A DNA stretch of 12,893 nt from a virus. Taxonomy: Duplodnaviria; Heunggongvirae; Uroviricota; Caudoviricetes. The DNA lies in IMG/VR virus record IMGVR_UViG_2617270988_000017. One strand, given 5' to 3'. The translations under genes and the position numbers were made by a program. How positions within the stretch are numbered: the first letter of the stretch is position 1; each line of letters begins with the position of its first letter. The notes under the pieces were generated by a model, which was not told where the DNA came from, did not search any database, and was given only the letters and a program-made list of their open reading frames with translations. Shown in pieces: positions 2,816 to 12,893 of this stretch.

Positions 2816-3358
2816 TTACTCGCCTTTCTTCTGTAGCAACTTTTCCGGTACGTTTCCGGTTGTTTCTTTCAAGTAATCAGTCAGTATCTGTGGGAGGTTG
2901 TCGGCAACTCTGGCACTGGCATTACAGGCTTTAACCACTTCCCTTTTAAGCCTATCCAGCATGGCGGGGGTAATCTGTGGGAAGCTCCTTTGCATAGTAA
3001 GCGGGAGGCTGTCCATGATTGATGAAATCTGACTCGCCAGCTTTGAAAGCGCGTACAGGCAAAACTCAGTATCAATCACGTCACCGCGATCGCGCTCGTT
3101 TTTAAGTTCCTGCGCCTCCGCCTGTGCTGTCAGTAATCTGATCCTGACTCGTAAGAGTTCATCATCATCAATATCGCCTTTGTCGTTTGTAAGCTGGCTA
3201 ATTGCATTGTTAACCCTATTGTCTATCACGCTGGCAACATCATAAAACGCCTCACGGCCTTTACGTTCAACGGGAGTCACTCCCCACTTGTCGAACGCTG
3301 TCGCACTTACACGGCAGCTTTTCGCCATGTTTTTTTTGTTCATCAGGTGCGATTTCAT
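2816..3358 (-). CDS. Terminase small subunit, lambda Nu1 family
   Basis: The 180-aa product aligns along its length with lambda Nu1 recalled from memory: N-terminal winged-HTH region (NKKNMAKSCRVSATAFDKW vs NKKQLADIFGASIRTIQNW) and C-terminal region (LTAQAEAQELKNERDRGDVIDTEFCLYALSKLASQISSIMDSLPLTMQRSFP vs LTRAQADAQELKNARDSAEVVETAFCTFVLSRIAGEIASILDGLPLSVQRRFP). ATG at 3358-3356. Confidence 0.9.
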   Translation of the reverse strand: MKSHLMNKKNMAKSCRVSATAFDKWGVTPVERKGREAFYDVASVIDNRVNNAISQLTNDKGDIDDDELLRVRIRLLTAQAEAQELKNERDRGDVIDTEFCLYALSKLASQISSIMDSLPLTMQRSFPQITPAMLDRLKREVVKACNASARVADNLPQILTDYLKETTGNVPEKLLQKKGE

Positions 3359-3989: not shown

Positions 3990-4325
3990 TTATCGGGCCA
4001 GCGGCTGAACGGATACGCCGGAACCCGCAAAGGCGGCGCATTTTTTCGCATCGGTGTCGACGCTCTCAGGCCAGTTAACGGCGGCAATATTGAATATCCC
4101 CGTCTTGTAACACTGTGCTGATTTCTGCTTTGACGTGCCCACAGGGTACGAGGTCAGATAAACAGCCTTGCCAGATTCCTGACCATCCCACGGCTTAAAC
4201 TCGCCATTGTCTGCCAGCATCAGCGGGGTAAATTCCTGAATAACGCCAGCATCAGCGGCAAAATGTACCAACGTCGTGGATACCTGCTGACTGCCTGCAA
4301 ATAACTCAATGTATGGAGTGTCCAT
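3990..4325 (-). CDS. Head decoration protein, lambda gpD family
   Basis: The 111-aa product matches lambda gpD from memory ([23 protein letters not shown] vs [59 protein letters not shown] vs [36 protein letters not shown]). SD GGGGGGA upstream of the ATG at 4325. Confidence 0.85.
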   Translation of the reverse strand: [111 protein letters not shown]

Positions 4326-4337
4326 AGAATCCCCCCG

Positions 4338-5393
4338 TTAACCAATTTTGACGGTAACAAATTTGCGAATATCTGCCGGTACCGGCTGCGGTGCACTGTG
4401 TGTCTGCACGTACTCAATCGCCGGATCGCCGTCCTCAATCCAGTTTTTCGGGTAAAACATGTTTTGTGTTGCGCCCGTTCTTACCGCTTCCTGATCCATT
4501 ATCGCACCATAGGCCACCAGCCCTTTATTGTTGGTGTTACCCAGGACCAGCAAATCAGGCTCAAGGAAATATTTTTCGGTACCATCGCTGTCAGTGTATT
4601 TGCCGGAATAGACGATAAGGGCCAGATCACCAAGATAGCCTTTAAAGCTCACCACTTCGCCCAGGTTTTTACAGGCCAGTTCGGCGGCGGATTCTGAACC
4701 ACGGGAAAGATCGTACAGCTCACGGAATTTTTTAAAGCTGCCTAATGTGCGCCATACCTCAGCGCCCATAATCATGACGTTTGCGGGGCAACCAGCCTGA
4801 TCAGCATAAAGCTCGATGTCATAGATTGGGTCGTGCATGTCTTTATCCTGCTCGGACCATTTTTTACCCTTGGCCTGCTCTATGATGCAGTTTTCCGGTA
4901 TTTTCCAGTCGATTTCATAGCGTTCTATGCCTTCGCCCTCAATGATGTTTTTTCCGGTCGTTACCGCATTCACCGCCAGCCATTCCACGCGTGCCTTAAT
5001 GGCGTTTATCTGGCGGCGCATGTTGCCAGTAATCAGGCGCATACGGCGATAGGTAGGGTCGTTAAGCTGTGCCGGATCTTCTCCAGCCATGCGCATGATG
5101 GTTTTCGTTGGATCGATTTCGTGCTTTGGCTTCATGTAGCCAGGTTTGATTGTGCTGGTTTCGTACCCTTTATCGCGCTGAACCTGGCTACCCACCATAG
5201 GCGAACAAAACGCCGACATGGTGACTTCTTCAATGTCCAGGGTATCCAGCATGATGTTTTGCGTGCTGAATGTCGCCACGTTCGGGAAAAACAGCGTGGT
5301 AAACAGAGGGCTGAATTTAAAATCCGCAATATCCCCGCGATTCAGGTACATGAAAAGCTGGTTAGTGTTAAGTGCCGTTGCTTTGCCTGCCAT
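4338..5393 (-). CDS. Major capsid protein, lambda gpE family (HK97 fold)
   Basis: The 351-aa product aligns with lambda gpE over its full length by eye, at moderate identity (for example KPGYMKPKHEIDP vs TPGYVKPKHEVNP; DPTYRRMRLITGNMR vs DPAYRRRRIIMQNMR; LVLGNTNNKGLVAYGAI vs MVLGNTQARGLRTYGCI; YPKNWIEDGDPA vs YPKNWVTTGDPA). SD GGGGGTGA. The E-then-D gene order is the reverse of lambda. Confidence 0.92.
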   Translation of the reverse strand: MAGKATALNTNQLFMYLNRGDIADFKFSPLFTTLFFPNVATFSTQNIMLDTLDIEEVTMSAFCSPMVGSQVQRDKGYETSTIKPGYMKPKHEIDPTKTIMRMAGEDPAQLNDPTYRRMRLITGNMRRQINAIKARVEWLAVNAVTTGKNIIEGEGIERYEIDWKIPENCIIEQAKGKKWSEQDKDMHDPIYDIELYADQAGCPANVMIMGAEVWRTLGSFKKFRELYDLSRGSESAAELACKNLGEVVSFKGYLGDLALIVYSGKYTDSDGTEKYFLEPDLLVLGNTNNKGLVAYGAIMDQEAVRTGATQNMFYPKNWIEDGDPAIEYVQTHSAPQPVPADIRKFVTVKIG

Positions 5394-6201: not shown

Positions 6202-6474
6202 TTAGCTGTCCTGGTAATTGCGCCATATTTCATCACCAGCACCATCTATACCCATTTCGGCATAAGTGCGATCGACTGCCTTTTTCAGGTCTCCGAAATT
6301 ATCCGGCGGCTCCGGTGCCCTCTGTGCCTTCCTTGAACATTCCAGCCGTCGCATCGTGATGTGATGCCGTTCCTTGTCTGTCTCCACCAGCTGCATGACT
6401 TCACCCCATCGCGCCGCCGCCCTCCGGTAAAAGCCTTTCGCCTCCAGTTCCTCCGCTATGCGGTCATGTACCAT
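6202..6474 (-). CDS. PerC-family transcriptional activator-like protein, 90 aa
   Basis: Start MVHDRIAEELEAKGFYRRAAARWGEVM carries the PerC/Pch-type N-terminal motif as I recall it. ATG at 6474 has a strong SD (GAGGGGGTGA). The track's longer version overlaps ssb and is rejected. Confidence 0.65.
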   Translation of the reverse strand: MVHDRIAEELEAKGFYRRAAARWGEVMQLVETDKERHHITMRRLECSRKAQRAPEPPDNFGDLKKAVDRTYAEMGIDGAGDEIWRNYQDS

Positions 6475-6484
6475 CGTCACCCCC

Positions 6485-6895
6485 TCAGAACGAAATATCA
6501 TCACCGTAAGAGTCATCGCCTCCCGCTGGTGGCTGATTACCCTGTGTGCCTGTGGTTTTGCGTCTGTTCCCGCCTGGACGTGCCGCGCGGGCACTGATTA
6601 CGCTGTCTGCGATAACCTGCCAGCCCTGCCGCGTTTCTCCGTTCTGTCCGGTCCACTGGCTTACCTGCATCGTGCCGGATACGCTGGCAACATCGCCTTT
6701 TTGATGTTTAGCCAGGAAGTCGGCCTGTTTGCCAAATGCGATGACCGATAACCATAACGTCGCCTGTCCGTCCTGTGCCTGGCTGCATGGCAAAGATACC
6801 GCCATACGCGCCAGCGTCATCGGTGTGCCCTTGCTGGTCTGTTTTACCTGCGGGTCGTCCACCAGCCGCCCGTAAGCGGCTATCTGTGCCGTCAT
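6485..6895 (-). CDS. ssb: Single-stranded DNA-binding protein
   Basis: 136 aa with an OB-fold-like N-terminal region, a Gly/Pro/Gln-rich linker (GTQGNQPPAGGDDSYG) and an acidic C-terminal tip DDISF resembling the SSB DDDIPF tail. The start overlaps the upstream stop (ATGA). Confidence 0.85.
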   Translation of the reverse strand: MTAQIAAYGRLVDDPQVKQTSKGTPMTLARMAVSLPCSQAQDGQATLWLSVIAFGKQADFLAKHQKGDVASVSGTMQVSQWTGQNGETRQGWQVIADSVISARAARPGGNRRKTTGTQGNQPPAGGDDSYGDDISF

Positions 6896-7152: not shown

Positions 7153-7348
7153 CCTCTCACTTTTTCGCCTCACTTTTTCAAGCGTCTCACTTCGTCGCAG
7201 TTGGGATTTTCGGTTTTTCTATGTGTGTGTTTCATAAGTATTTTTTTACCCCTCACTTTTGAGGATGTATACAGGTCGAAAAGTGAGGGAGAGCGGGCTA
7301 ATTTTGGCCCTCTTTCTATCCCCCTCGCTTTTGCTCCTCACTTTTATA
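7153..7348. repeat. Iteron array, putative origin of replication of the element
   Basis: CTCACTTTT-type repeats at 7156-7165, 7169-7178, 7186-7192, 7252-7260, 7278-7289 (inverted), 7323-7333 (variant CTCGCTTTT) and 7336-7347, plus an AT-rich stretch at 7230-7248. It lies immediately 3' of the rep gene, as is typical of satellite and plasmid origins. Confidence 0.55.
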
Positions 7349-8743
7349 GCGGCGCTACATCATCCCCATCGATACGAATAACCCCATCTTTTTCCAGCTT
7401 GTACAGCCAGCGCCGGAAGTTTTTCATTTCATACCCCAGCTTTTTCATGTCATCACGTAACAGCGGGATCGTGCACTTGTCGCCGTTCTGTGTGCGTGAA
7501 CGGATGCACCCCCATAGCGCGGTATGGTTTTCCGTCTTGTTCCCTGCCTCCTCGATGCGCTCCAGTTCAACAGGAGGGCGCGGATCATCCACCACCACCA
7601 GCGACGTGATTAATTCACCGTCAGCGTCGGTAAAAAGCTCCACCACGCGTAAGTCATATGCGGCTTCTTTGAGTTCCTCCGCGTCCTTCATTTTGGTGCA
7701 TGAGATAACCAGCGCTTCGCTTCCTGCGTCCTCCCTGCGTATCCGGTATTCAGCATCCAGCGAAGCACGAAATGCACTGGAACCGCGCGCGCCTTTCGTC
7801 TCATCCTTGCCGGAATGGTGAACCACCAGCACCGTGGCCCCTGTGCGTCGTTTCAGTTCGTCACAACCACGGATAAACGCCCCATATCACGGGAATCATT
7901 TTCATCATTCCCACCAAAGCAACGCGCCAGCGTATCCAGAATAATCATGCGTACAGGTTTACCCGTTTCCCGCTCCACCTGACGGGCAGCGATAACCATT
8001 TCATCAACATCAAGCGGGGCAGCCGGAAAGATGGGGCGGTTTACCAGATACAGATTTTTCACCTGCTCATCGTGCACAACCTCCCAGGCTTTTACACGAC
8101 GCGGAACACCTATACCGCCTTCACCAACCACATAGAGAACCGCACCATGTGCAACCCTGCGGCCTCCCCACTGGCGACCAGTGGCAACATGGCACGCCCA
8201 CGATCCGGCAAGGAATGATTTATAGGACCCGCTAGCCCCGTATATGCTGCATAGCGATACCGCCGGAATAATCCCCTTAACCACGTAATCCAGTTGCGTG
8301 TCGTATCCGGTAGATCCAACGCTCATCGGTAGCGTGGTTTTTCGCTGGTGGTTTTTTTCTTCCGCCGGCTCTTTCCCGCGCACCCGTTCCAGGTATTCGC
8401 GCCAGTTCTCCCGCATATGGCTGTGCATCCCTTCGGGGTAATAATTCGCATCAGTTACACCCGCCGCCGCCAGCTTGTGCGCAATGGCATTAATATTTGA
8501 TGGCCTGATGTGGCCTGCCTTGTACAGCCGGACACAATAGCGCCCCTCGTCGATGATTCTCAGGTCTGCCAGTTCATCCAGTTGATCATCAGCCAGCACA
8601 ACGGGAGGCACATTATCGCCAGCCAGTCGCCCGTCCTGTTCCTGCCACTGTTTCGCATGTGCCCAGGCATCACTACCCGCAAAAATAATGACTTCGGTCA
8701 TCTTGTCGTAAGGCTGTTTTTTTAAGTTCGGTGCGCTTTTCAT
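7344..8743 (-). pseudogene. Replication protein (primase/helicase-like, RepA-type P-loop ATPase with C-terminal winged-helix-like tail); reading frame interrupted near 7880
   Basis: The N-terminal ORF (8743..7853) has a Walker-A-like GASGSYKS and ILDTLARCFGG. The C-terminal ORF (7832..7344) continues in another frame with VVHHSGKDETKGARGSSAFRASLD, typical of RepA/AAA_25-like ATPases. The total span is 1400 nt, not a multiple of 3. The frames join if the G4 run (plus-strand CCCC 7880-7883) is G5, giving ...DSRDMGAFIRGCDELKRRTGATVLVVHH... Confidence 0.7.
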
Positions 8744-9039
8744 TTCTTGCCCCTGAATCCGTTAACCATGGTTTTCAGCTTCTGGATGTTTGCCCGTGCC
8801 CTGGCGTTGCTGGTGGGCACGTTATGCGGCGCGGTCTGTACCAGAGAAAAATCACGCCGGAACTGATAAACAGGCATCACGCAATCATATTCGTAACCTT
8901 CACGGCGGTAAGTTACGCACCGTCCCGCCACGCCCTTAATCATTACCGTGCCGCCGTACTGGTCGCGGTAAATATCACCGCGCGTAAATTTAGGGTGAGT
9001 GTTGCCACTGGCAGTTAAGCCAGAATATTTAAGTTTCAT
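8740..9039 (-). CDS. Hypothetical basic protein, 99 aa
   Basis: ATG at 9039 with GGAG upstream. The stop overlaps the rep start (ATGA). No family recognised. Confidence 0.55.
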   Translation of the reverse strand: MKLKYSGLTASGNTHPKFTRGDIYRDQYGGTVMIKGVAGRCVTYRREGYEYDCVMPVYQFRRDFSLVQTAPHNVPTSNARARANIQKLKTMVNGFRGKK

Positions 9040-9044
9040 TATTT

Positions 9045-9278
9045 TTATTCTCCGGTGTGCTGTTCGTTATATCTGTCGTGCAATGTCTCTATTTCCTGCA
9101 ACTCATTTATTACAGGCTCAAGAAGCGTTATTAATGCCGTGACAATTCTTGATTTTTGTTTGTCGCGTTCATTGTCGCCAAGTGTTTCAAGCCATATGCG
9201 CAATATTTCGTACATACCTTCAGCGTAAGCAAGGGCACTAAATGCGCGGTCTATTGTTTCGTGGTAAATATCACGCAT
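9045..9278 (-). CDS. Hypothetical small acidic protein, 77 aa
   Basis: ATG at 9278 with SD GGGGA. Net acidic and helical-looking. Tightly packed with neighbours (1-5 nt gaps). Confidence 0.55.
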   Translation of the reverse strand: MRDIYHETIDRAFSALAYAEGMYEILRIWLETLGDNERDKQKSRIVTALITLLEPVINELQEIETLHDRYNEQHTGE

Positions 9279-9279
9279 A

Positions 9280-9501
9280 TTAATCCCCGTCCGTTGTTTT
9301 TCTTAAAACAGCTTCTGTCACGAAATCAGCATAGTTAGCGGCAATATCAAGAATATTTAGCCCTGTATCTCTGTGCTCATCAGTGCAAAGAAAGAAAAAA
9401 GCCACCCGCATAATTTCAGATATTGACGAAAGCGCATCAGCCGCATCATCAGGAACGCCGGAAAATTCTTGTTTCAGGGAATTAAAACGATCATCACGCA
9501 T
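9280..9501 (-). CDS. Hypothetical small acidic protein, 73 aa
   Basis: ATG at 9501-9499 (MRDDRFNSLKQEFSGVPDDAADAL...). The track's longer N-terminus is rejected. It shares a PD-AADAL motif with the upstream 73-aa ORF. Confidence 0.55.
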   Translation of the reverse strand: MRDDRFNSLKQEFSGVPDDAADALSSISEIMRVAFFFLCTDEHRDTGLNILDIAANYADFVTEAVLRKTTDGD

Positions 9502-9715
9502 AACCCCCCCCATTTTCACAATCAGCAACAAGAATATTTTTAGCGTCATTCAGCGACCGCGTTGCGATGTATCGGATACATTCCAGGGCGAACTGTGTCC
9601 GGTCTTTCTGTTCTTCTCCCTGCGCAAGCTCTGCAGTGCATTCAATATCGATAAGCGCGTGCATCAGCGTAGTGAGCGCGTCGGCTGCTGCGTCCGGTGT
9701 GGTTTTATTGCACAT
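9494..9715 (-). CDS. Hypothetical small acidic protein, 73 aa
   Basis: ATG at 9715-9713 (MCNKTTPDAAADAL...) preceded by a strong SD (AGGAGGTG). It ends in NGGGYA encoded by a G8 run and overlaps the next start. Confidence 0.6.
   Translation of the reverse strand: MCNKTTPDAAADALTTLMHALIDIECTAELAQGEEQKDRTQFALECIRYIATRSLNDAKNILVADCENGGGYA
9504..9511. repeat. C8/G8 homopolymer at a gene junction
   Basis: Eight consecutive C on the plus strand (G on the coding strand). It encodes the GGG tail of the upstream ORF and lies 2 nt before the ATG of the downstream ORF. Confidence 0.9.
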
Positions 9716-9896
9716 GGCACACCTCCTGACGAATACGGGCGGCGAATACAGCAACACAACCGGACGGGCAACGGCTACGCGCTTCGCGTTCCGTCCAGGC
9801 GGTTACGTGGATGATTTGATGTTCTGACGCGCCAAAGATGATAAAGCGCCAGAGAAAGGCGGTTTGAGAATGTACAAGGGTAGGGATAGTAGCCAT
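9705..9896 (-). CDS. Small protein, 63 aa; possibly Icd-like (host cell division inhibitor family), tentative
   Basis: ATG at 9896 with SD GAGGAGG 8 nt upstream, TAA at 9707-9705. The WRF and FAARIRQ motifs resemble what I recall of Icd-like small proteins from P4-like islands, but this is unverified. A diverged tandem copy lies 369 bp upstream. Confidence 0.5.
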   Translation of the reverse strand: MATIPTLVHSQTAFLWRFIIFGASEHQIIHVTAWTEREARSRCPSGCVAVFAARIRQEVCHVQ

Positions 9897-10056
9897 GTTG
9901 GCAGCCTCCTCAGTGTGGTTAAGATAACCGCCACCGGAAACGCCAATTTCGCTGGTGGCGGACTGTACAGGGTTGGCGTAACCGGACACTGAAGAAACCG
10001 GCGCGGATTGCTCCGCCCCCGTACAGCCCACCATTGATAAGGTGTGACTATGCGGC

Positions 10057-10082
10057 ACAAAAAAACACGCGGGGCGCGTGTT
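10057..10082 (-). terminator. Strong Rho-independent terminator signature inside the upstream tandem copy
   Basis: Minus strand reads AACACGCG-CCC-CGCGTGTT followed by TTTTTTT (plus-strand A7 at 10059-10065). It is GC-rich with an uninterrupted U-tract. Confidence 0.65.
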
Positions 10083-10265
10083 ATGCGCTTCAGTTTTGCC
10101 CAGGACGCCAATCCCGGCACCCGTTTTATGAGGTGCGCGGGAATCATAGCTATTTTCGACACTGGCGATCAACTGGTTTTTTTCTCCGATATTCAGGGCC
10201 AGAAAACGCCACACAAAGGCCGTTTGTGTGTGTACAAGGTGTGGTATATGATTTACGGCAACCAT
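10083..10265 (-). pseudogene. Degenerate tandem paralogue of the 63-aa ORF (or translated leader); no in-frame stop before the terminator
   Basis: ATG at 10265 with SD AGGAG. The first 30 or so codons are homologous to the downstream ORF (PHLVHTQTAFVWRFLAL vs PTLVHSQTAFLWRFIIF) with synonymous and conservative changes. The frame then runs through the terminator without a stop, and a C-terminal-like motif (RVFLCRI vs AVFAARI) appears only in another frame. Confidence 0.35.
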
Positions 10266-10293
10266 AACGGCTCCTAGTTTACGTTGTTGGTTA

Positions 10294-10328
10294 GACGCCC
10301 CGTATGTGTTCCCAGCACTGCGGGGCGT
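10294..10328. promoter_or_regulatory. 8-bp inverted repeat ACGCCCCG / CGGGGCGT with a 19-bp spacer in the divergent control region
   Basis: Arms at 10294-10301 and 10321-10328, in the 5' leader of the minus-strand small-ORF operon and upstream of the RHH promoter. Confidence 0.4.
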
Positions 10329-10353
10329 TGATTTTTGTGTAATGGCAAGTACA

Positions 10354-10395
10354 ATGGTAATTACCATGTAGGTATAGTAATGAAGGGTAATTACC
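10354..10395. promoter_or_regulatory. Two GGTAATTACC operator-like palindromes at the RHH gene promoter
   Basis: Perfect 14-bp palindrome ATGGTAATTACCAT at 10354-10367 and GGTAATTACC at 10386-10395, centres 30 bp apart. The second abuts the RHH ATG. A TATAGT -10-like hexamer is at 10373-10378. Confidence 0.6.
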
Positions 10396-10569
10396 ATGTC
10401 AACACCATTAGAAAAACGTTCGCCTCCATACCAAATGCGATTACCGGAAGACTTCAGAGCGCAGCTAGAAGAAGCAGCTAAGGCCGATGGCGACACATCT
10501 TTAGCCACTTGGATTAAACGCGTTCTCCGCAAAGAATTACAGCAACGCGGCATAGAACCCAAAGGATAA
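10396..10569 (+). CDS. Ribbon-helix-helix (Arc/CopG-like) DNA-binding protein, 57 aa
   Basis: ATG at 10396, TAA at 10567-10569. The product MSTPLEKRSPPYQMRLPEDFRAQLEEAAKADGDTSLATWIKRVLRKEL has the typical RHH pattern (beta-strand YQMRLP, then two helices). It is absent from the ORF track because it is under 60 aa. Confidence 0.7.
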   Translation: MSTPLEKRSPPYQMRLPEDFRAQLEEAAKADGDTSLATWIKRVLRKELQQRGIEPKG

Positions 10570-10611
10570 AAACTATCAGCGCCGTGGTGTGAGGTATTAC
10601 GGCGCATTGCT

Positions 10612-10800
10612 ATGCAGGACAACACAATGACCGATAAAGAATTGACCAAAACATTATCACCGGCACGGAAAAGACGGCGCAGAAAGATAGAGCATGAATC
10701 AGAAAGATTCGCGCCATGTGCTTTTGCCCTTGAGCAATTCCTTAAAGAGTACAGGGAAAAGCGCTCATTGCAGGTATGGCAACGAACTGAACCAGACTGA
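10612..10800 (+). CDS. Hypothetical small basic protein, 62 aa, downstream of the RHH gene
   Basis: ATG at 10612 (alternative ATG at 10627 with AGGA upstream). It contains an ARKRRRRK basic patch. The coding call is weak. Confidence 0.4.
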   Translation: MQDNTMTDKELTKTLSPARKRRRRKIEHESERFAPCAFALEQFLKEYREKRSLQVWQRTEPD

Positions 10801-10894
10801 TTGCATTGCCCACCAGCCTGATAGCGGCTATCATCCCCGTGCTTATGTTTGGGATCACATACACATAAGGCGCAGCGGGTTAATTGTTCAGAAA

Positions 10895-10922
10895 GGCGGC
10901 TCCATATCGGGGCCGCTTTTTT
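10895..10922 (+). terminator. Rho-independent terminator between convergent alpA and the RHH operon
   Basis: Stem GGCGGCTCC (10895-10903) / GGGGCCGC (10909-10916) followed by T6 (10917-10922). Confidence 0.65.
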
Positions 10923-10948
10923 CGTGTTTGTCATATCTGTGATACCCG

Positions 10949-11155
10949 TTAAGCAGCCGTTCCGCGTGCTTCCTCTTCGCGTTCTTTCTGCCAGGACAAC
11001 ACATCATCCTCATACCATCCGCGACGGCGTAAACCAACGCGAAAACCCTGCGGAAATTCTCCGGCGTTGATCATGCTTTGCAGCGTGCTGTCTGCCTTGA
11101 TGTGGATAATTTTTTTTACTTCCTGGCGAAAGATAATTTTTCTGATTGCTTCCAT
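10949..11155 (-). CDS. alpA: AlpA-family phage transcriptional regulator / excisionase-like protein
   Basis: The 68-aa product matches the AlpA pattern (IIHIKADSTLQSMINAGEFPQGFRVGLRRRGWYEDDVLSWQ vs CP4-57 AlpA ...TGMARATIYDWLNPKSPRYDATFPKKRMLGVKSVGWIEAEIDEWL). ATG at 11155. Confidence 0.8.
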   Translation of the reverse strand: MEAIRKIIFRQEVKKIIHIKADSTLQSMINAGEFPQGFRVGLRRRGWYEDDVLSWQKEREEEARGTAA

Positions 11156-11651: not shown

Positions 11652-12893
11652 CTACACGGCTCGGATACCCCTTTTACCACTGGCGAGGGTTACGCCCGTC
11701 GCCGCAGCCTCGACAAATTCGCCCCACCAGCGCATCAGCACGATGCGTTTTTCTATGTAGTTGCTCCGGTTGTATGCCCGTCTAACTTCGTTGGTGTCGA
11801 CGTGGGCAAGTGCCGCCTCTATTACGTCCGGCTCGAATCCTTCCTCGTTCGCTGCTGTGCTGAATATGGCGCGTAATCCATGAGACACCAGCACGCCAGC
11901 GAATCCCATACGCCGCAATGCTGCGTTAGCTGTCTGGCTGTTCATCGGCTGCTGTGGGTCTTTCAGACTTGGGAAAACGTAATTGCGGTGGTGGCTGATT
12001 GGTTTCATGGCCTCCAGCACCGCCATAGCCTGACCGGAAAGCGGGATAACGTGATCCCTGCGCATCTTCATGCGTCCGGCAGGTATCGTCCATTGCTTCG
12101 CGTCCAGGTTGATTTCATCCCACCGCGTTGATGACGCTTCGGCGGGACGGGTTACGGTCAGTAACTGCCATTCAATCAGTAATCTGGTCTGCCGTTCTGT
12201 TGCCGATACTGATAAAGCCTGCATAAGCTCGGGCAGCTGTTCGGGGCGGATTGTTGGCATATGTTTTTTTACAGGTGAGGGAAACGCCTTACGCACATTC
12301 ATAGCCGGATTGGCATCAATCAGCCCACTGTTGGCGGCGTAATCCATTACCTCATTAACGCGCTGTAAAACCCGCTTGAGTGTTTCCAGGTTGCCGCGCT
12401 CCTTGATGGGGGTAAGCACTTCAACGAACCTTCGGGCGGTGAGGGTATCTATTGGCGTGTTGCCGATGAACGGGAATACATATTTATCCAGCGAACGCCA
12501 GATGTCTTTAATCGTGTTGGGGGCCAGATTCTGGCTGATTTTCACCTGGTACCATGCCGCCGCCACATTTTCGAACGTGTTCCCTTGTCTTCGGGCCTCT
12601 GTCTCTCTTTTTTGCCTCTCGTGGTCCTGCGGGTCAGTTCCGGCACTGATTAACGTCCTGTACTCGCTACGGCGTTTTCTGGCATCAGCCAGGGAAACAT
12701 CTTCAAGCGATCCAAAACTCAGCAATATTCTTTTTTTGTCCGATGGTCGGTAGTAGGAAAATCTCCAGAGTTTTGATCCAGACGGTTTGACCAGGAGAAA
12801 AAGCCCTCCGCCGTCCTGCAGGGTGTACTCCTTTTGCGCTGGTCTGGCTGCTTTGATCTGCACTGTGGTTAATGGGTGTGTTTTTCTCGCCAT
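11652..12893 (-). CDS. int: Site-specific tyrosine integrase, P4 family
   Basis: 413 aa with an N-terminal arm-binding-type region (KEYTLQDGGGLFLLVKPSGSKLWRFSYY) and a C-terminal catalytic domain (HGLRAIFST...RAYNRSNY). The ATG is at the last three bases of the window, so the upstream region and att site are outside it. Confidence 0.95.
   Translation of the reverse strand: MARKTHPLTTVQIKAARPAQKEYTLQDGGGLFLLVKPSGSKLWRFSYYRPSDKKRILLSFGSLEDVSLADARKRRSEYRTLISAGTDPQDHERQKRETEARRQGNTFENVAAAWYQVKISQNLAPNTIKDIWRSLDKYVFPFIGNTPIDTLTARRFVEVLTPIKERGNLETLKRVLQRVNEVMDYAANSGLIDANPAMNVRKAFPSPVKKHMPTIRPEQLPELMQALSVSATERQTRLLIEWQLLTVTRPAEASSTRWDEINLDAKQWTIPAGRMKMRRDHVIPLSGQAMAVLEAMKPISHHRNYVFPSLKDPQQPMNSQTANAALRRMGFAGVLVSHGLRAIFSTAANEEGFEPDVIEAALAHVDTNEVRRAYNRSNYIEKRIVLMRWWGEFVEAAATGVTLASGKRGIRAV

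What the first reader, a model, noticed from the sequence alone, without database searches (positions are those of the whole stretch)
8740..9715. Operon of four tightly packed small ORFs upstream of rep, three of them acidic and apparently paralogous
ORFs 9715-9494, 9501-9280 and 9278-9045 are each 73-77 aa, net negative, helical-looking, and the first two share a PD-AADAL motif. All are chained by overlapping or near-overlapping start/stop codons with the basic 99-aa ORF and rep. Clusters of small acidic proteins in early regions are a recurring signature of anti-restriction, DNA-mimic or helper-interference functions. This is the most plausible place in the window for an uncharacterised helper-manipulation or counter-defence module.
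Basis: inference. Interest (0 to 1): 0.6.

Follow-up and report, generated by a model that had tools for sequence, protein, structure and literature searches.

The report
Small early genes of E. coli satellite
The four small genes are real and belong to the early operon of a well-known type of E. coli phage satellite (a PICI like EcCICFT073/OI-51): the basic one is the published virulence regulator RgdR, and the three acidic ones are uncharacterised helical proteins that do not form one paralogous family and show no sign of being DNA mimics.

Summary
Observation confirmed. ORFs 9715-9494, 9501-9280, 9278-9045 and 9039-8740 exist. They are chained by overlapping or near-overlapping stops and starts, and they evolve under purifying selection.

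The setting is ordinary. The window is an EcCICFT073/OI-51-type PICI next to phoQ. The 99-aa basic ORF is RgdR (DUF4222), 97% identical to the characterised ECs1581, with its RGD motif intact.

The chain is longer than reported: promoter, isrK, C4 antisense RNA, icd-like leader ORF, ORF1, ORF2, ORF3, rgdR, rep. Rep is frameshifted in this window.

Paralogy is not supported.
- ORF1 and ORF2 share only a 12-residue motif (profile E 0.03).
- ORF3 is unrelated in sequence to either.

The ORFs also behave differently.
- ORF3 is a confident alpha-hairpin. It keeps its place next to the replication genes in diverged satellites, directly upstream of DUF4222 where that gene is present.
- ORF1 and ORF2 occupy a variable cassette slot. 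They are joined by a hypermutable G7-G11 tract that fuses or splits them.

No family, fold or charge evidence points to a DNA mimic.

Function is unknown. My best guess is small protein-binding modulators: ORF3 tied to RgdR/Rep, ORF1-ORF2 an accessory helper- or host-directed factor.

Interest is moderate-low.

The parts
10374..10402 (-). sigma-70-like promoter (TTGACA-17-TACTAT) pointing towards isrK/C4/icd; overlaps a divergent + strand promoter-like site at 10328-10355
   Evidence: consensus scan only; 10 of 12 matches
10060..10136 (-). isrK-type RNA with intrinsic terminator (stem 10064-10082); carries the upstream copy (a1/b1) of the C4 target sequences
   Evidence: Rfam RF01394, 66 bits, E 1.4e-12. 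Terminator. Strongest C4-loop duplex in the transcript lies at about 10115-10086.
9951..10038 (-). C4 antisense RNA (P1/P7/P4-type immunity RNA)
   Evidence: Rfam RF01695, 77.6 bits against a gathering score of 45, E 3.7e-14, full length
9905..9947 (-). leader holding the downstream C4 targets: ATTGGCGT (9947-9940) and ACACTGAGGAGG (9916-9905), the latter covering the Shine-Dalgarno of the icd-like ORF
   Evidence: RNAduplex of the C4 loop region with the leader gives -39.6 kcal/mol; shuffles give -20.2 +/- 3.4, minimum -31.8. Sequence read.
9705..9896 (-). Icd-like leader ORF (63 aa); its stop overlaps the ORF1 start by 11 nt
   Evidence: NCBIfam NF033153 phage_ICD_like, E 1.4e-15. RefSeq annotation of near-identical islands.
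9494..9715 (-). ORF1, 73 aa, acidic. Two long helices. Invariant N-terminus (TPDAAAxAL..LMHALIDI) and a fast-evolving centre.
   Evidence: AGGAGG 6 nt before the ATG. phrog_5146 4e-13 and phrog_2512 positions 1-76. 79 homologue clusters. dN/dS 0.52. pN/pS 0.41, 0.69 and 0.28 for N-terminus, centre and C-terminus. AF2 hairpin H9-35/H40-72 at pLDDT 63-74.
9504..9511 (-). poly-G tract (G8 here) at the ORF1 stop / ORF2 start. Its length decides whether ORF1 and ORF2 are fused (G7, G10) or separate (G8, G9, G11). It also serves as a G-rich ribosome-binding stretch for ORF2.
9280..9501 (-). ORF2, 73 aa, acidic, predicted helical; second half of the 144-155-aa fused protein found in OI-51 and other islands
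   Evidence: phrog_24341 3e-43 and phrog_2512 positions 78-146. 75 homologue clusters. dN/dS 0.26. Fused 154-aa protein in O157:H7.
9045..9278 (-). ORF3, 77 aa, acidic alpha-helical hairpin. Conserved core gene next to the replication genes of this satellite type; directly upstream of DUF4222 where that gene is present.
   Evidence: phrog_2196 7e-39. 519 homologue clusters. AF2 pLDDT 93.8, pTM 0.77, H2-32 and H37-75. Diverged homologues in the same position in other PICIs.
8740..9039 (-). rgdR (DUF4222), 99 aa, pI 10.2, RGD at residues 20-22. Translationally coupled to rep (ATGA).
   Evidence: Pfam PF13973 2.1e-23. 97% identical to the O157:H7 OI-51 protein. Literature.
7344..8743 (-). rep (RepA-family helicase, AAA_25), split into 296-aa and 162-aa ORFs by a 1-nt deletion at about 7879/7880
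   Evidence: Pfam AAA_25 5.9e-31. phrog_2850 covers both halves. Intact 465-466 aa gene in relatives. Alignment.
10949..11155 (-). alpA-type regulator; activator of the PICI cycle in EcCICFT073
   Evidence: weak Pfam Phage_AlpA (E 0.0028), PHROG excisionase/regulator 2.5e-6. 28.6% identity to P4 ORF88, E 1.8e-6. Role from PMC6092414.
10396..10569 (+). unannotated Arc/ribbon-helix-helix-like ORF (57 aa), divergent from the operon promoter; candidate repressor of the switch region
   Evidence: phrog_228 Arc-like repressor 1.5e-6. Weak Pfam Arc. Diverged alleles keeping the RHH pattern in 21 loci.

Best explanation
**What is shown**

The four ORFs are the middle of the early operon of an EcCICFT073/OI-51-family phage-inducible chromosomal island (PICI) inserted next to phoQ. 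The order is:

promoter -> isrK (a1/b1 sites) -> C4 antisense RNA -> icd-like leader ORF -> ORF1 -> ORF2 -> ORF3 -> rgdR -> rep

- Every junction is overlapping or nearly so.
- No terminator-like site was found on this strand between C4 and rep, so the chain is probably one transcription unit.
- The C4 loops are complementary to the icd Shine-Dalgarno, as in phage P1 immI.
- ORF4 is RgdR, a known basic DNA-binding regulator.
- ORF3 is a confident two-helix hairpin. It sits directly upstream of DUF4222 and rep even in PICIs where it is only 25-30% identical.
- ORF1 and ORF2 fill a slot that other PICIs fill with unrelated small ORFs.
- In about a quarter of alleles ORF1 and ORF2 are one 144-155-aa protein, because a G7-G11 tract at their junction changes length.

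**What is inferred**

- In the quiescent island, C4 RNA masks the icd ribosome-binding site. Through translational coupling or polarity this keeps the whole chain low.
- On induction (AlpA is the activator, driven by the helper phage) the chain is made together with Rep.
- The three acidic proteins act as small helical protein-binding modules. Hairpins pair into four-helix bundles. They are not enzymes or DNA mimics.
- ORF3 most likely works with its constant neighbours. It may be an acidic partner or modulator of basic RgdR, or of the shared N-terminal domain of the Rep proteins. That would make it part of the island's replication and early-control core.
- ORF1-ORF2 is an exchangeable accessory factor aimed at a helper or host protein. 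It occupies the position that antirepressors hold in P1 (ant), Gifsy-1 (anrP) and P4 (epsilon).
For: **Element identity**
- int, alpA, rep, SSB, PerC-like, capsid and terS genes are all present.
- The island sits next to phoQ, the same site as OI-51 and EcCICFT073.
- EcCICFT073 carries the same Icd-like/ORF1/ORF2/ORF3/DUF4222 block.

**RNA switch**
- Rfam C4 77.6 bits and isrK 66 bits.
- The C4-leader duplex is -39.6 kcal/mol against -20.2 +/- 3.4 for shuffles, and it covers the icd Shine-Dalgarno.
- No terminator-like site on the - strand between C4 and rep.
- P1 immI logic is described in PMC8201110. Gifsy-1 isrK-orf45-anrP is described in PMC4825925.

**RgdR**
- Pfam 2.1e-23.
- 97% identity to the OI-51 protein, RGD intact.
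- Literature.

**Coding status**
- dN/dS 0.26-0.52.

**ORF3 structure and conservation**
- pLDDT 93.8, two-helix hairpin.
- Homologues directly upstream of DUF4222 in L090 and L091 (E 1.5e-9 and 1.5e-5). One lies two genes upstream of the primase in L088 (E 2e-12). One lies directly upstream of the primase in a cf-PICI-like record.

**ORF1/ORF2 as one variable unit**
- phrog_2512 spans both.
- There is a 154-aa fusion in O157:H7.
- Among unique loci the tract is G7 in 11, G8 in 18, G9 in 13, G10 in 3 and G11 in 1, with 5 interrupted variants.
- Tract length differs within 6 of 11 groups of loci that have identical 400-nt flanks.
- ORF1-ORF2 is the only pair of genes with allele covariation (r 0.11, p 0.006).
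- Unrelated ORFs replace them in L090 and L091. Extra cassettes are inserted in L003 and L005.

**Satellite-specific**
- Essentially absent from 50,697 phage records.
Against: - The antirepressor analogy rests on position only.
  - There is no similarity to P4 epsilon, ORF151 or Cnr.
  - There is no Ant, AntA or KilA-N domain.
  - In L088 a separate AntA protein sits in the same operon.
- C4/isrK is missing from EcCICFT073, OI-51 and several other islands that carry the same ORFs. RNA gating is therefore not integral to the module.
- No allele covariation between ORF3 and RgdR or Rep. The same ORF alleles occur with four different initiator types.
- The ORF1/ORF2 model was of low confidence (pLDDT 56).
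- Some poly-G length differences could be homopolymer sequencing errors.
- ORF2 is truncated in a few islands, so it may be dispensable.
Confidence: 0.4

Rival explanations
1. All three acidic ORFs are ordinary accessory subunits of the island's replicon, together with RgdR. They could be an initiator chaperone or loader, an origin-remodelling factor, or a copy-number control like P4 Cnr. Under this reading they have no role against helper, host or defence systems.
For: - The ORFs always lie immediately upstream of the initiator gene and are translationally chained to it.
- ORF3-like genes stay within 0-2 genes of the primase or helicase in diverged satellites.
- Different Rep classes share a conserved N-terminal segment of about 122 aa that could be a common docking surface.
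- P4 has a small regulator (Cnr/ORF106) directly upstream of alpha.
- In P1 the lytic replicon kilA-repL follows immI.
Against: - No allele covariation with Rep (r about 0).
- The same alleles occur with RepA-helicase, P4-type primase, DUF5906 and DUF927 initiators.
- ORF1 and ORF2 are replaced by unrelated ORFs or truncated in other islands.
- No match to any replication-accessory family. No similarity to Cnr.
Confidence: 0.25
2. One reading: the acidic ORFs are counter-defence proteins that protect incoming island DNA. They would be DNA mimics or anti-restriction factors, or RecBCD inhibitors of the Ocr, ArdA, gp5.9 or Gam type.
For: - Acidic (pI 4.3-4.7), small and helical.
- Encoded early, in a variable, mosaic region.
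- An SSB gene lies in the same island, as in plasmid leading regions. The plasmid comparison is my own recollection and was not tested here.
Against: - ORF1-3 have no hit below E 0.01 in Pfam, NCBIfam or PADLOC.
- No PDB sequence match.
- ORF3 is a simple hairpin with no significant Foldseek hit in PDB or BFVD. The best matches are designed hairpins, not DNA mimics.
- Net charge of -6 to -8 per roughly 75 aa is modest. It is shared with other small proteins of the island, for example the 74-aa ORF with pI 4.76.
[quoted passage not shown] The C4 gating is my inference. That is late for protecting DNA on entry.
- The families are confined to Escherichia and Shigella.
Confidence: 0.1
3. The ORFs are host-directed regulators that act with RgdR and the PerC-like protein. 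One possibility is antagonism of H-NS-type silencing through coiled-coil interactions, changing expression of LEE, motility or the island itself. Under this reading they are lysogenic-conversion cargo.
For: - RgdR and PICI PerC homologues both act on LEE1.
- That LEE1 is H-NS-silenced, and that small helical island proteins such as H-NST and Hha bind H-NS, is my own knowledge and was not tested here.
- Constant linkage of ORF3 with rgdR.
- The OI-51 fragment z1835-z1843 that complemented T3S includes them.
Against: - rgdR alone complemented the OI-51 and rgdR deletions.
- No Pfam match to H-NS or Hha families.
- The module is common in commensal and LEE-negative strains such as Nissle 1917 and CFT073.
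Confidence: 0.12
4. ORF1 and ORF2 are a decaying gene. The ancestral state is the single roughly 150-aa protein, and the G8 tract in this window is an inactivating frameshift in an island that is already degenerate (rep is also frameshifted).
For: - Rep carries a 1-nt deletion here.
- The fused form is the state in O157:H7 OI-51.
- ORF2 truncations and frameshift variants exist.
- ORF1 dN/dS is 0.52.
Against: - Split forms (G8, G9, G11) outnumber fused forms (G7, G10) by 32 to 14 among unique loci with an uninterrupted tract.
- The active, transferable EcCICFT073 has G8.
- ORF2 keeps its own ATG and G-rich ribosome-binding stretch in every phase.
- ORF2 dN/dS is 0.26.
- The tracts interrupted by a T or A ('locked') are all in a split phase.
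Confidence: 0.08

Closest known systems
EcCICFT073 / O-island 51 (CP-933C, Sp7) family of Gram-negative PICIs (Fillol-Salom et al. 2018, PMC6092414; Flockhart et al. 2012, PMC3378721)
   Same: - Same insertion site next to phoQ.
- Same gene order: int, alpA, Icd-like, small ORFs, DUF4222/RgdR, rep, SSB, PerC-like, capsid and decoration genes.
- ORF1-3 are present in EcCICFT073 itself. Its ORF1 carries the same RefSeq protein accession as an island whose ORF1 is 99% identical to the window's.
- RgdR is 97% identical to the OI-51 protein.
   Different: - The regulatory region here has isrK + C4 RNAs, which EcCICFT073 and OI-51 lack.
- The initiator is a RepA-type helicase (frameshifted here), against a P4-type primase in CFT073.
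- A terS gene sits where CFT073 has a 144-aa ORF, presumably rppA.
- ORF1 and ORF2 are separate here and in CFT073, but fused in OI-51.
Phage P1/P7 immI operon (c4 antisense RNA - icd - ant1/2, followed by kilA-repL)
   Same: - C4 RNA of the same Rfam family.
- Upstream and downstream complementary target sites, the downstream one over the icd ribosome-binding site.
- An Icd-like leader ORF.
- Downstream genes chained to it, ending in a replication initiator.
   Different: - No Ant or KilA homologue. Three roughly 75-aa helical proteins and RgdR take that place.
- The element is an integrated satellite, not a plasmid prophage.
- No experimental evidence that C4 acts here.
Satellite phage P4 left operon (ORF88/Vis - CI RNA - epsilon - ORF151 - ORF106/Cnr - alpha)
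   Same: - AlpA/ORF88 homology (E 1.8e-6).
- An RNA-based immunity element, then a run of small ORFs, then the initiator.
- Sizes run in parallel: 95, 151 and 106 aa in P4, against 77, 144-155 (fused form) and 99 aa here.
   Different: - No sequence similarity between ORF1-3 or RgdR and epsilon (PF25738), ORF151 or Cnr (DUF5375).
- No psu, delta or sid genes.
Gifsy-1 isrK - orf45 - anrP (antirepressor) locus of Salmonella (Hershko-Shalev et al. 2016, PMC4825925)
   Same: An isrK RNA with a read-through terminator, followed by a short leader ORF whose translation controls the downstream gene.
   Different: The downstream gene there is a predicted antirepressor-like protein that switches on AntQ. 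Here it is the ORF1-ORF3/rgdR/rep chain. The trans-activating role of short IsrK was not tested here.
Homopolymeric-tract phase-variable (contingency) genes of Neisseria, Haemophilus and similar bacteria (from my own knowledge; not checked against papers here)
   Same: A G7-G11 run inside coding sequence whose length varies between otherwise identical alleles and changes the reading frame.
   Different: - It does not switch a gene off. All three phases keep ORF1 and an independently startable ORF2, and only fusion or the ORF1 tail changes.
- Switching within a population is not shown.
- Part of the variation could be sequencing error.
Alpha-hairpin proteins that pair into four-helix bundles (designed DHD heterodimers 6DMA/6DMP; type III secretion stalk proteins EscO/YscO; Rop of ColE1 from my own knowledge)

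Membership tests
Gram-negative PICI of the EcCICFT073/OI-51 type | Tyrosine integrase at one end, with alpA-type regulator next to it, transcribed in the same direction as the rest of the island | tested here: met
   int 11652-12893 and alpA 10949-11155 on the - strand. RefSeq annotation of relatives.
Gram-negative PICI of the EcCICFT073/OI-51 type | Own replication initiator (pri-rep) downstream of alpA | tested here: inconclusive
   RepA-family helicase present (AAA_25 5.9e-31), but split by a 1-nt deletion in this window.
Gram-negative PICI of the EcCICFT073/OI-51 type | Characteristic att site and size of about 10-15 kb, without tail and lysis genes | tested here: met
   - The island lies between phoQ (1-1461) and int, spanning about 11.4 kb.
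- This is the same site as OI-51 and EcCICFT073.
- Only capsid, decoration and terS genes were seen.
Gram-negative PICI of the EcCICFT073/OI-51 type | Induction, replication and high-frequency transfer by a helper phage | not testable with these tools
   Shown for EcCICFT073 in PMC6092414, not for this island. The rep frameshift argues it may be defective.
RgdR / DUF4222 | DUF4222 domain above Pfam gathering score | tested here: met
   PF13973, 82.1 bits against a cut-off of 27, E 2.1e-23, full domain 1-53
RgdR / DUF4222 | RGD tripeptide at residues 20-22, required for activity (the R20C variant is inactive) | tested here: met
   The sequence reads ...KFTRGDIYRD. The requirement comes from PMC10877973 and PMC3378721.
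RgdR / DUF4222 | Activates LEE1/T3S, represses motility, binds DNA | not testable with these tools
   Shown for ECs1581 and C1493. The window protein differs from the OI-51 protein at 3 of 99 residues.
P1-type immI (C4 antisense RNA) control | C4 RNA matching the Rfam covariance model | tested here: met
   RF01695, 77.6 bits against a gathering score of 45
P1-type immI (C4 antisense RNA) control | Complementary target sites upstream (a1/b1) and downstream (a2/b2), the latter over the ribosome-binding site of icd | tested here: met
   Best duplexes at about 10115-10086 and 9947-9905. The leader duplex is -39.6 kcal/mol against -20.2 +/- 3.4 for shuffles.
P1-type immI (C4 antisense RNA) control | icd-like leader ORF | tested here: met
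   NF033153, E 1.4e-15
P1-type immI (C4 antisense RNA) control | Antirepressor (Ant/AntA/KilA-N/Bro-type) gene downstream of icd | tested here: not met
   No such domain in ORF1-3 or RgdR
DNA-mimic / anti-restriction proteins (Ocr, ArdA, ArdB/KlcA, gp5.9, Gam) | Sequence or profile membership in a known anti-restriction family | tested here: not met
   No Pfam, NCBIfam, PADLOC or PDB sequence hit of significance
DNA-mimic / anti-restriction proteins (Ocr, ArdA, ArdB/KlcA, gp5.9, Gam) | Fold resembling a known DNA mimic, with a surface array of carboxylates imitating the phosphate backbone | tested here: inconclusive
   - ORF3 is a generic hairpin, and no DNA mimic appears among the top matches.
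- The ORF1/ORF2 model is too poor to judge.
- Net charge is -6 to -8.
- Surface charge pattern and oligomer were not modelled.
P4 helper-derepression protein epsilon (PF25738) and P4 Cnr (DUF5375) | Sequence homology | tested here: not met
   BLASTP E >= 0.03 for all pairs. The Pfam families hit only the P4 proteins.
One paralogous family comprising ORF1, ORF2 and ORF3 | Significant pairwise or profile-profile similarity | tested here: not met
   - ORF1-ORF2: BLASTP E 0.002 over 27 aa. hhalign aligns 12 columns with E 0.031 and probability 1.6%.
- ORF3 against either: no BLASTP alignment and hhalign probability below 1%.
- Family HMMs do not cross-detect.
- A shared two-helix architecture is all that remains.
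Homopolymer phase-variable locus | Tract length polymorphism between alleles with identical flanks that changes the reading frame | tested here: met
   6 of 11 groups with identical 400-nt flanks hold two tract lengths. G7 to G11 were observed. CFT073 has G8, O26 11368 has G9 and an O157:H7 genome has G7.
Homopolymer phase-variable locus | Reversible switching within a clonal population at high frequency | not testable with these tools
   Needs deep amplicon sequencing or reporter fusions

The most novel reading that the evidence does not exclude
The ORF1-ORF2 junction is a true contingency switch in a phage satellite. Slippage of the G7-G11 tract toggles between a single two-hairpin protein and two separate hairpin proteins, or an ORF1 with a different tail. 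This changes which helper-phage or host protein the module binds, for example different prophage repressors or defence proteins, so a clonal population of islands hedges its bets over helpers. The whole chain would be gated by a P1-type C4 antisense RNA, giving PICIs an RNA-based immunity layer not described in the PICI papers I searched.
Probability: 0.1. Interest if true: 0.75.

Novelty: new member of a known kind. Interest (0 to 1): 0.35.

Why it matters
The island type is the prototype Gram-negative PICI. It is common: 1,483 of 5,426 complete E. coli genomes match this block, 755 of them over at least 80% of it.

Its genes between alpA and rep have never been assigned a role. The published interference screen covered only genes after the origin.

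Three points make the block testable.
- **ORF3 and RgdR.** ORF3 is a conserved partner of RgdR and Rep. That could explain why every E. coli PICI carries the 'virulence regulator' RgdR, whose native job is probably in the island's own life cycle.
- **The poly-G junction.** ORF1-ORF2 is an exchangeable unit with a hypermutable poly-G junction.
- **RNA control.** Some PICIs, including this one, put the operon under a P1-type C4/isrK RNA switch with a divergent Arc-like gene. This bears on the open question of how Gram-negative PICIs are kept silent.

None of this changes the basic picture of PICIs. The counter-defence idea that made the finding attractive has no positive support.

Tried and rejected
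**Family and homology searches**
- Pfam, NCBIfam, PADLOC and PDB sequence searches gave nothing for ORF1-3. PHROGs gave only unknown-function families.
- All three homologous-protein searches returned only E. coli and Shigella 'hypothetical' proteins.
- An exhaustive HMM search of 1.84 billion representative proteins with the ORF3 profile gave 14 hits. About four were full-length clusters and none carried an informative domain fusion.
- The genome-contig scan across 185,579 species returned one locus, in Shigella flexneri.

**Paralogy**
- Rejected after BLASTP, hhalign and cross-HMM tests.

**Structure**
- The substitute, P0013 (ORF1 plus two-thirds of ORF2), gave pLDDT 56 and was not used for fold search.
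- The afdb50 library was unavailable.

**Other leads**
- Homology to P4 epsilon, ORF151 and Cnr was rejected. A weak RgdR-ORF151 BLASTP alignment (E 0.36) was not backed by Pfam.
- Co-evolution of ORF1-3 with Rep or RgdR was tested with Mantel tests, and none was found.
- C4/isrK as a universal feature of the module was rejected. It is absent from OI-51, EcCICFT073 and several other loci.
- Literature searches for the locus tags (z1842/z1843/ECs1580-83, c1492) found no functional study.

Full report
**1. What is in the sequence**

The window starts with phoQ (1-1461, + strand). The rest is an island whose genes all lie on the - strand:
- integrase (11652-12893);
- an AlpA-type regulator (10949-11155);
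- the region of the finding;
- a RepA-family helicase, an SSB and a PerC-like gene;
- lambda-E/D-like capsid and decoration genes, and a small terminase.

| ORF | Coordinates | Length |
|---|---|---|
| ORF1 | 9494-9715 | 73 aa |
| ORF2 | 9280-9501 | 73 aa |
| ORF3 | 9045-9278 | 77 aa |
| ORF4 | 8740-9039 | 99 aa |

Their junctions are tight:
- ATGCGTGA overlap between ORF1 and ORF2;
- 1-nt gap between ORF2 and ORF3;
- 5-nt gap between ORF3 and ORF4;
- ATGA overlap between ORF4 and rep.

ORF1-3 have pI 4.4, 4.3 and 4.7 (net charge -6, -8, -8). ORF4 has pI 10.2.

They are genes, not chance ORFs:
- Each matches a PHROG family of unknown function.
- They have 79, 75 and 519 homologue clusters.
- The order ORF1-ORF2-ORF3-ORF4-rep is kept in 80 IMG/VR loci.
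- Nei-Gojobori dN/dS is 0.52, 0.26 and 0.27. ORF4, a protein with an experimentally shown function, gives 0.27.

**2. The element is a known one**

The block matches 1,483 of 5,426 complete E. coli genomes, 755 of them over at least 80% of its length. RefSeq annotates it as 'Icd-like protein, hypothetical x3, DUF4222 protein, helicase RepA/primase'.

The site next to phoQ is that of O-island 51 (CP-933C/Sp7) of O157:H7 and of EcCICFT073, the prototype Gram-negative PICI. EcCICFT073 itself carries Icd-like / 76 aa / ORF1 / ORF2 / ORF3 / DUF4222 / primase. Its ORF1 has the same RefSeq protein accession as an island whose ORF1 is 99% identical to the window's.

ORF4 is RgdR:
- Pfam DUF4222, E 2e-23.
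- It differs at 3 of 99 residues from the OI-51 protein, with the functionally required RGD at residues 20-22.
- RgdR activates LEE1 and type III secretion, represses motility and binds DNA without clear specificity.
- Fillol-Salom et al. state that it is encoded by all analysed E. coli PICIs.

**3. The operon is longer and, here, RNA-gated**

An Icd-like ORF (9705-9896; NF033153, E 1.4e-15) ends 11 nt inside ORF1. Upstream of it, Rfam finds a full-length C4 antisense RNA (9951-10038, 77.6 bits) and an isrK RNA with its terminator (10060-10136, 66 bits).

The C4 loop region is complementary to two places:
- a stretch inside isrK (about 10115-10086);
- the leader, at ATTGGCGT (9947-9940) and ACACTGAGGAGG (9916-9905). 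The second covers the Shine-Dalgarno of the icd-like ORF.

The leader duplex is -39.6 kcal/mol, against -20.2 +/- 3.4 for shuffles. This is the a1/b1 - c4 - a2/b2 - icd layout of phage P1 immI. There C4 and Icd control the antirepressor Ant, and the lytic replicon kilA-repL lies just downstream. It also recalls isrK-orf45-anrP of Gifsy-1 and the P4 left operon.

No terminator-like site lies on the - strand between C4 and rep. A promoter-like site (10402-10374) overlaps a divergent one that precedes an unannotated Arc-like ORF (10396-10569, + strand). That ORF is conserved with diverged alleles in 21 loci.

The RNA switch is not universal. OI-51, EcCICFT073 and several other islands with the same ORFs lack C4 and isrK.

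**4. The three acidic ORFs are not one family**

- ORF1 and ORF2 share TPDAAADAL / VPDDAADAL. BLASTP gives E 0.002 over 27 residues.
- Family profiles align over only 12 columns (E 0.031, probability 1.6%).
- ORF3 aligns with neither.
- The family HMMs do not detect one another's relatives.

What they share is architecture.
- **ORF3.** AlphaFold models it with high confidence (pLDDT 93.8, pTM 0.77) as two antiparallel helices, 2-32 and 37-75.
- **ORF1.** In a fusion protein, the ORF1 part is a similar hairpin at moderate confidence.
- **ORF2.** The ORF2 part was not modelled reliably.

A hairpin is the simplest helical fold:
- Foldseek finds nothing with E <= 0.001 in PDB or BFVD.
- The best matches are designed heterodimer hairpins.

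No DNA-mimic or anti-restriction protein appears among the top matches. ORF1-3 have no significant Pfam, NCBIfam, PADLOC or PDB-sequence hit.

**5. ORF3 and ORF1/ORF2 evolve differently**

ORF3 stays put while diverging:
- In two other E. coli PICIs, the ORF directly upstream of DUF4222 is an ORF3 homologue at 25-30% identity (E 1.5e-9 and 1.5e-5). This holds with a DUF927 initiator in one and a P4-type primase in the other.
- In those same islands the two ORFs before it are unrelated to ORF1 and ORF2.
- A cf-PICI-like record has an ORF3-like gene directly upstream of its primase.
- A metagenomic satellite has one two genes upstream of its primase. That operon also contains an AntA-domain protein.

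ORF3 is therefore a core gene that stays next to the replication genes, beside RgdR where RgdR is present. The family is nonetheless narrow: 14 hits among 1.84 billion representative proteins, and one locus among 185,579 species genomes.

ORF1 and ORF2 behave as an exchangeable unit:
- phrog_2512 spans both.
- OI-51 encodes them as one 154-aa protein.
- Extra cassettes are inserted before or between them in some islands.
- ORF2 is truncated in a few islands.
- The centre of ORF1 evolves fastest, with pN/pS 0.69 against 0.41 and 0.28 at the ends.

Alleles of all genes are shuffled freely. The only covariation is between ORF1 and ORF2 (r 0.11, p 0.006), and none exists with Rep. The block occurs with four different initiator types.

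**6. The poly-G junction**

The ORF1 stop and ORF2 start sit on GAAAATG(n)TTATGCG. The flanks are invariant even between ORF1 alleles that are 50% identical.

| Tract | Unique loci | State |
|---|---|---|
| G7 | 11 | 10 fused; 1 split, part of the interrupted tract GGGGAGGGGGGG |
| G8 | 18 | split (this window and CFT073) |
| G9 | 13 | split, ORF1 extended to 80-86 aa |
| G10 | 3 | fused |
| G11 | 1 | split |
| GGGGGTGG or GGGGTGGG | 5 | split |

In 6 of 11 groups of loci with identical 400-nt flanks, two tract lengths occur. ORF2 keeps its own ATG in every phase. The tract therefore changes whether ORF1 is fused to ORF2 and which tail it carries. It does not switch a gene off.

Reference genomes differ too: an O157:H7 genome has G7, CFT073 has G8 and O26 11368 has G9. 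Some of the variation in draft assemblies could still be homopolymer error.

**7. What it most likely does**

*Shown.* The operon anatomy, the identity of RgdR, the coding status of the ORFs, the ORF3 fold, the core-versus-cassette split, and the variable tract.

*Inferred.*
- C4 masks the icd ribosome-binding site and keeps the coupled chain low until induction.
- The acidic proteins are small protein-binding hairpins.
- ORF3 works with its constant neighbours, basic RgdR and/or the N-terminal segment of about 122 aa that different Rep classes share.
- ORF1-ORF2 is an accessory factor aimed at a helper or host protein. It sits where P1, Gifsy-1 and P4 place antirepressors.

*Confidence and rivals.* I give this composite about 0.4. 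The rivals are:
- a purely replicative accessory role for all three (0.25);
- host-directed regulation with RgdR and PerC (0.12);
- gene decay (0.08).

*Evidence against helper interference.* Deleting rppA alone restored lambda plating on EcCICFT073 almost to the level without the island. However, the genes before the origin were never tested individually.

*Evidence against the antirepressor analogy.* There is no homology to P4 epsilon, ORF151 or Cnr.

**8. Verdict**

This is the early operon of a common, published PICI family, with one gene already characterised. The paralogy claim fails, and the counter-defence interpretation has no positive evidence.

The parts that do not appear in the papers I searched are:
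- the poly-G fusion/split junction;
- the conserved ORF3-RgdR-Rep core;
- the C4/isrK plus Arc-like switch in a subset of PICIs.

They are modest, testable leads rather than surprises.

Noticed in passing
window 9951-10038 and 10060-10136 (- strand); targets at 9940-9947 and 9905-9916: Full-length C4 antisense RNA and isrK RNA directly upstream of the Icd-like ORF. The C4 loops are complementary to the icd Shine-Dalgarno and to a site inside isrK, which is a P1 immI-type switch in a PICI. No paper in the library holds both 'c4 antisense' and 'phage-inducible chromosomal'. The RNAs are present in only some related islands.
   Followed up: yes
window 9504-9511 (- strand G8): Hypermutable poly-G tract at the ORF1/ORF2 junction. 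Related islands carry G7 to G11, and length differs even between loci with identical flanks. It decides whether ORF1 and ORF2 are one protein or two.
   Followed up: yes
window 10396-10569 (+ strand); promoter-like sites 10328-10355 (+) and 10374-10402 (-): Unannotated 57-aa Arc/ribbon-helix-helix-like ORF, divergent from the operon, with overlapping back-to-back promoter-like sites. Diverged alleles are conserved in 21 loci. It could be the repressor that Gram-negative PICIs are said to lack. EcCICFT073 has divergent small genes (YlcI/YnfO family) at the same place.
   Followed up: partly
window about 7879/7880 (rep, 7344-8743, - strand): A 1-nt deletion (ATGGGG-CGTTT against ATGGGGACGTTT) splits the RepA-family helicase into 296-aa and 162-aa ORFs. 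The island in this window is probably replication-defective, unless this is a sequencing error.
   Followed up: yes
window 9705-10934 (- strand): A 409-aa open frame runs through isrK, C4 and the Icd-like ORF and is almost certainly not a gene. RefSeq pseudogene calls 'ash family protein' and 'Icd-like, incomplete' in near-identical islands overlie the C4/isrK RNA genes and the Arc-like ORF. They look like annotation artefacts of conserved RNA sequence.
   Followed up: partly
window 7853-8743 (Rep residues 1-122) and loci L017, L026-L031 and others: Initiators of different catalytic classes (RepA helicase, P4-type primase, DUF5906, DUF927) share a conserved N-terminal segment of about 122 aa at 62-64% identity. 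It may be a common docking or regulatory domain next to RgdR.
   Followed up: no
window 9276-9278/9499-9501 start regions: ORF2 and ORF3 both start with ATGCGTGAT (MRD) after a G-rich stretch. Gene boundaries in this block coincide with recombination break points, since alleles of adjacent genes are uncorrelated.
   Followed up: partly
window 4338-5393, 3990-4325, 2816-3358 (- strand): The satellite carries a 351-aa major capsid protein, a 111-aa head-decoration protein and a 180-aa small terminase. The resemblance of the first two to lambda gpE and gpD is my recollection and was not tested. EcCICFT073 has the same capsid and decoration pair, but a 144-aa ORF (presumably RppA) in place of terS.
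   Followed up: no
window 6202-6594 and 6485-6895 (- strand): A PerC-like ORF (Pch-type LEE regulator family) and an SSB lie downstream of rep, as in OI-51 and EcCICFT073. A PerC homologue of another PICI represses LEE.
   Followed up: no
L003 13009-13221; L005 3109-3339 and 3528-3911; L088 4260-4529: Further small cassette ORFs are inserted in the same chain in other islands. One is a 70-aa / 127-aa family (MxNLSxxDLNxIQF...). Another is a 63-76-aa acidic family (…EITLxxAAERAHQ…). One 89-aa mosaic has an RgdR-like N-terminus. All are of unknown function.
   Followed up: partly
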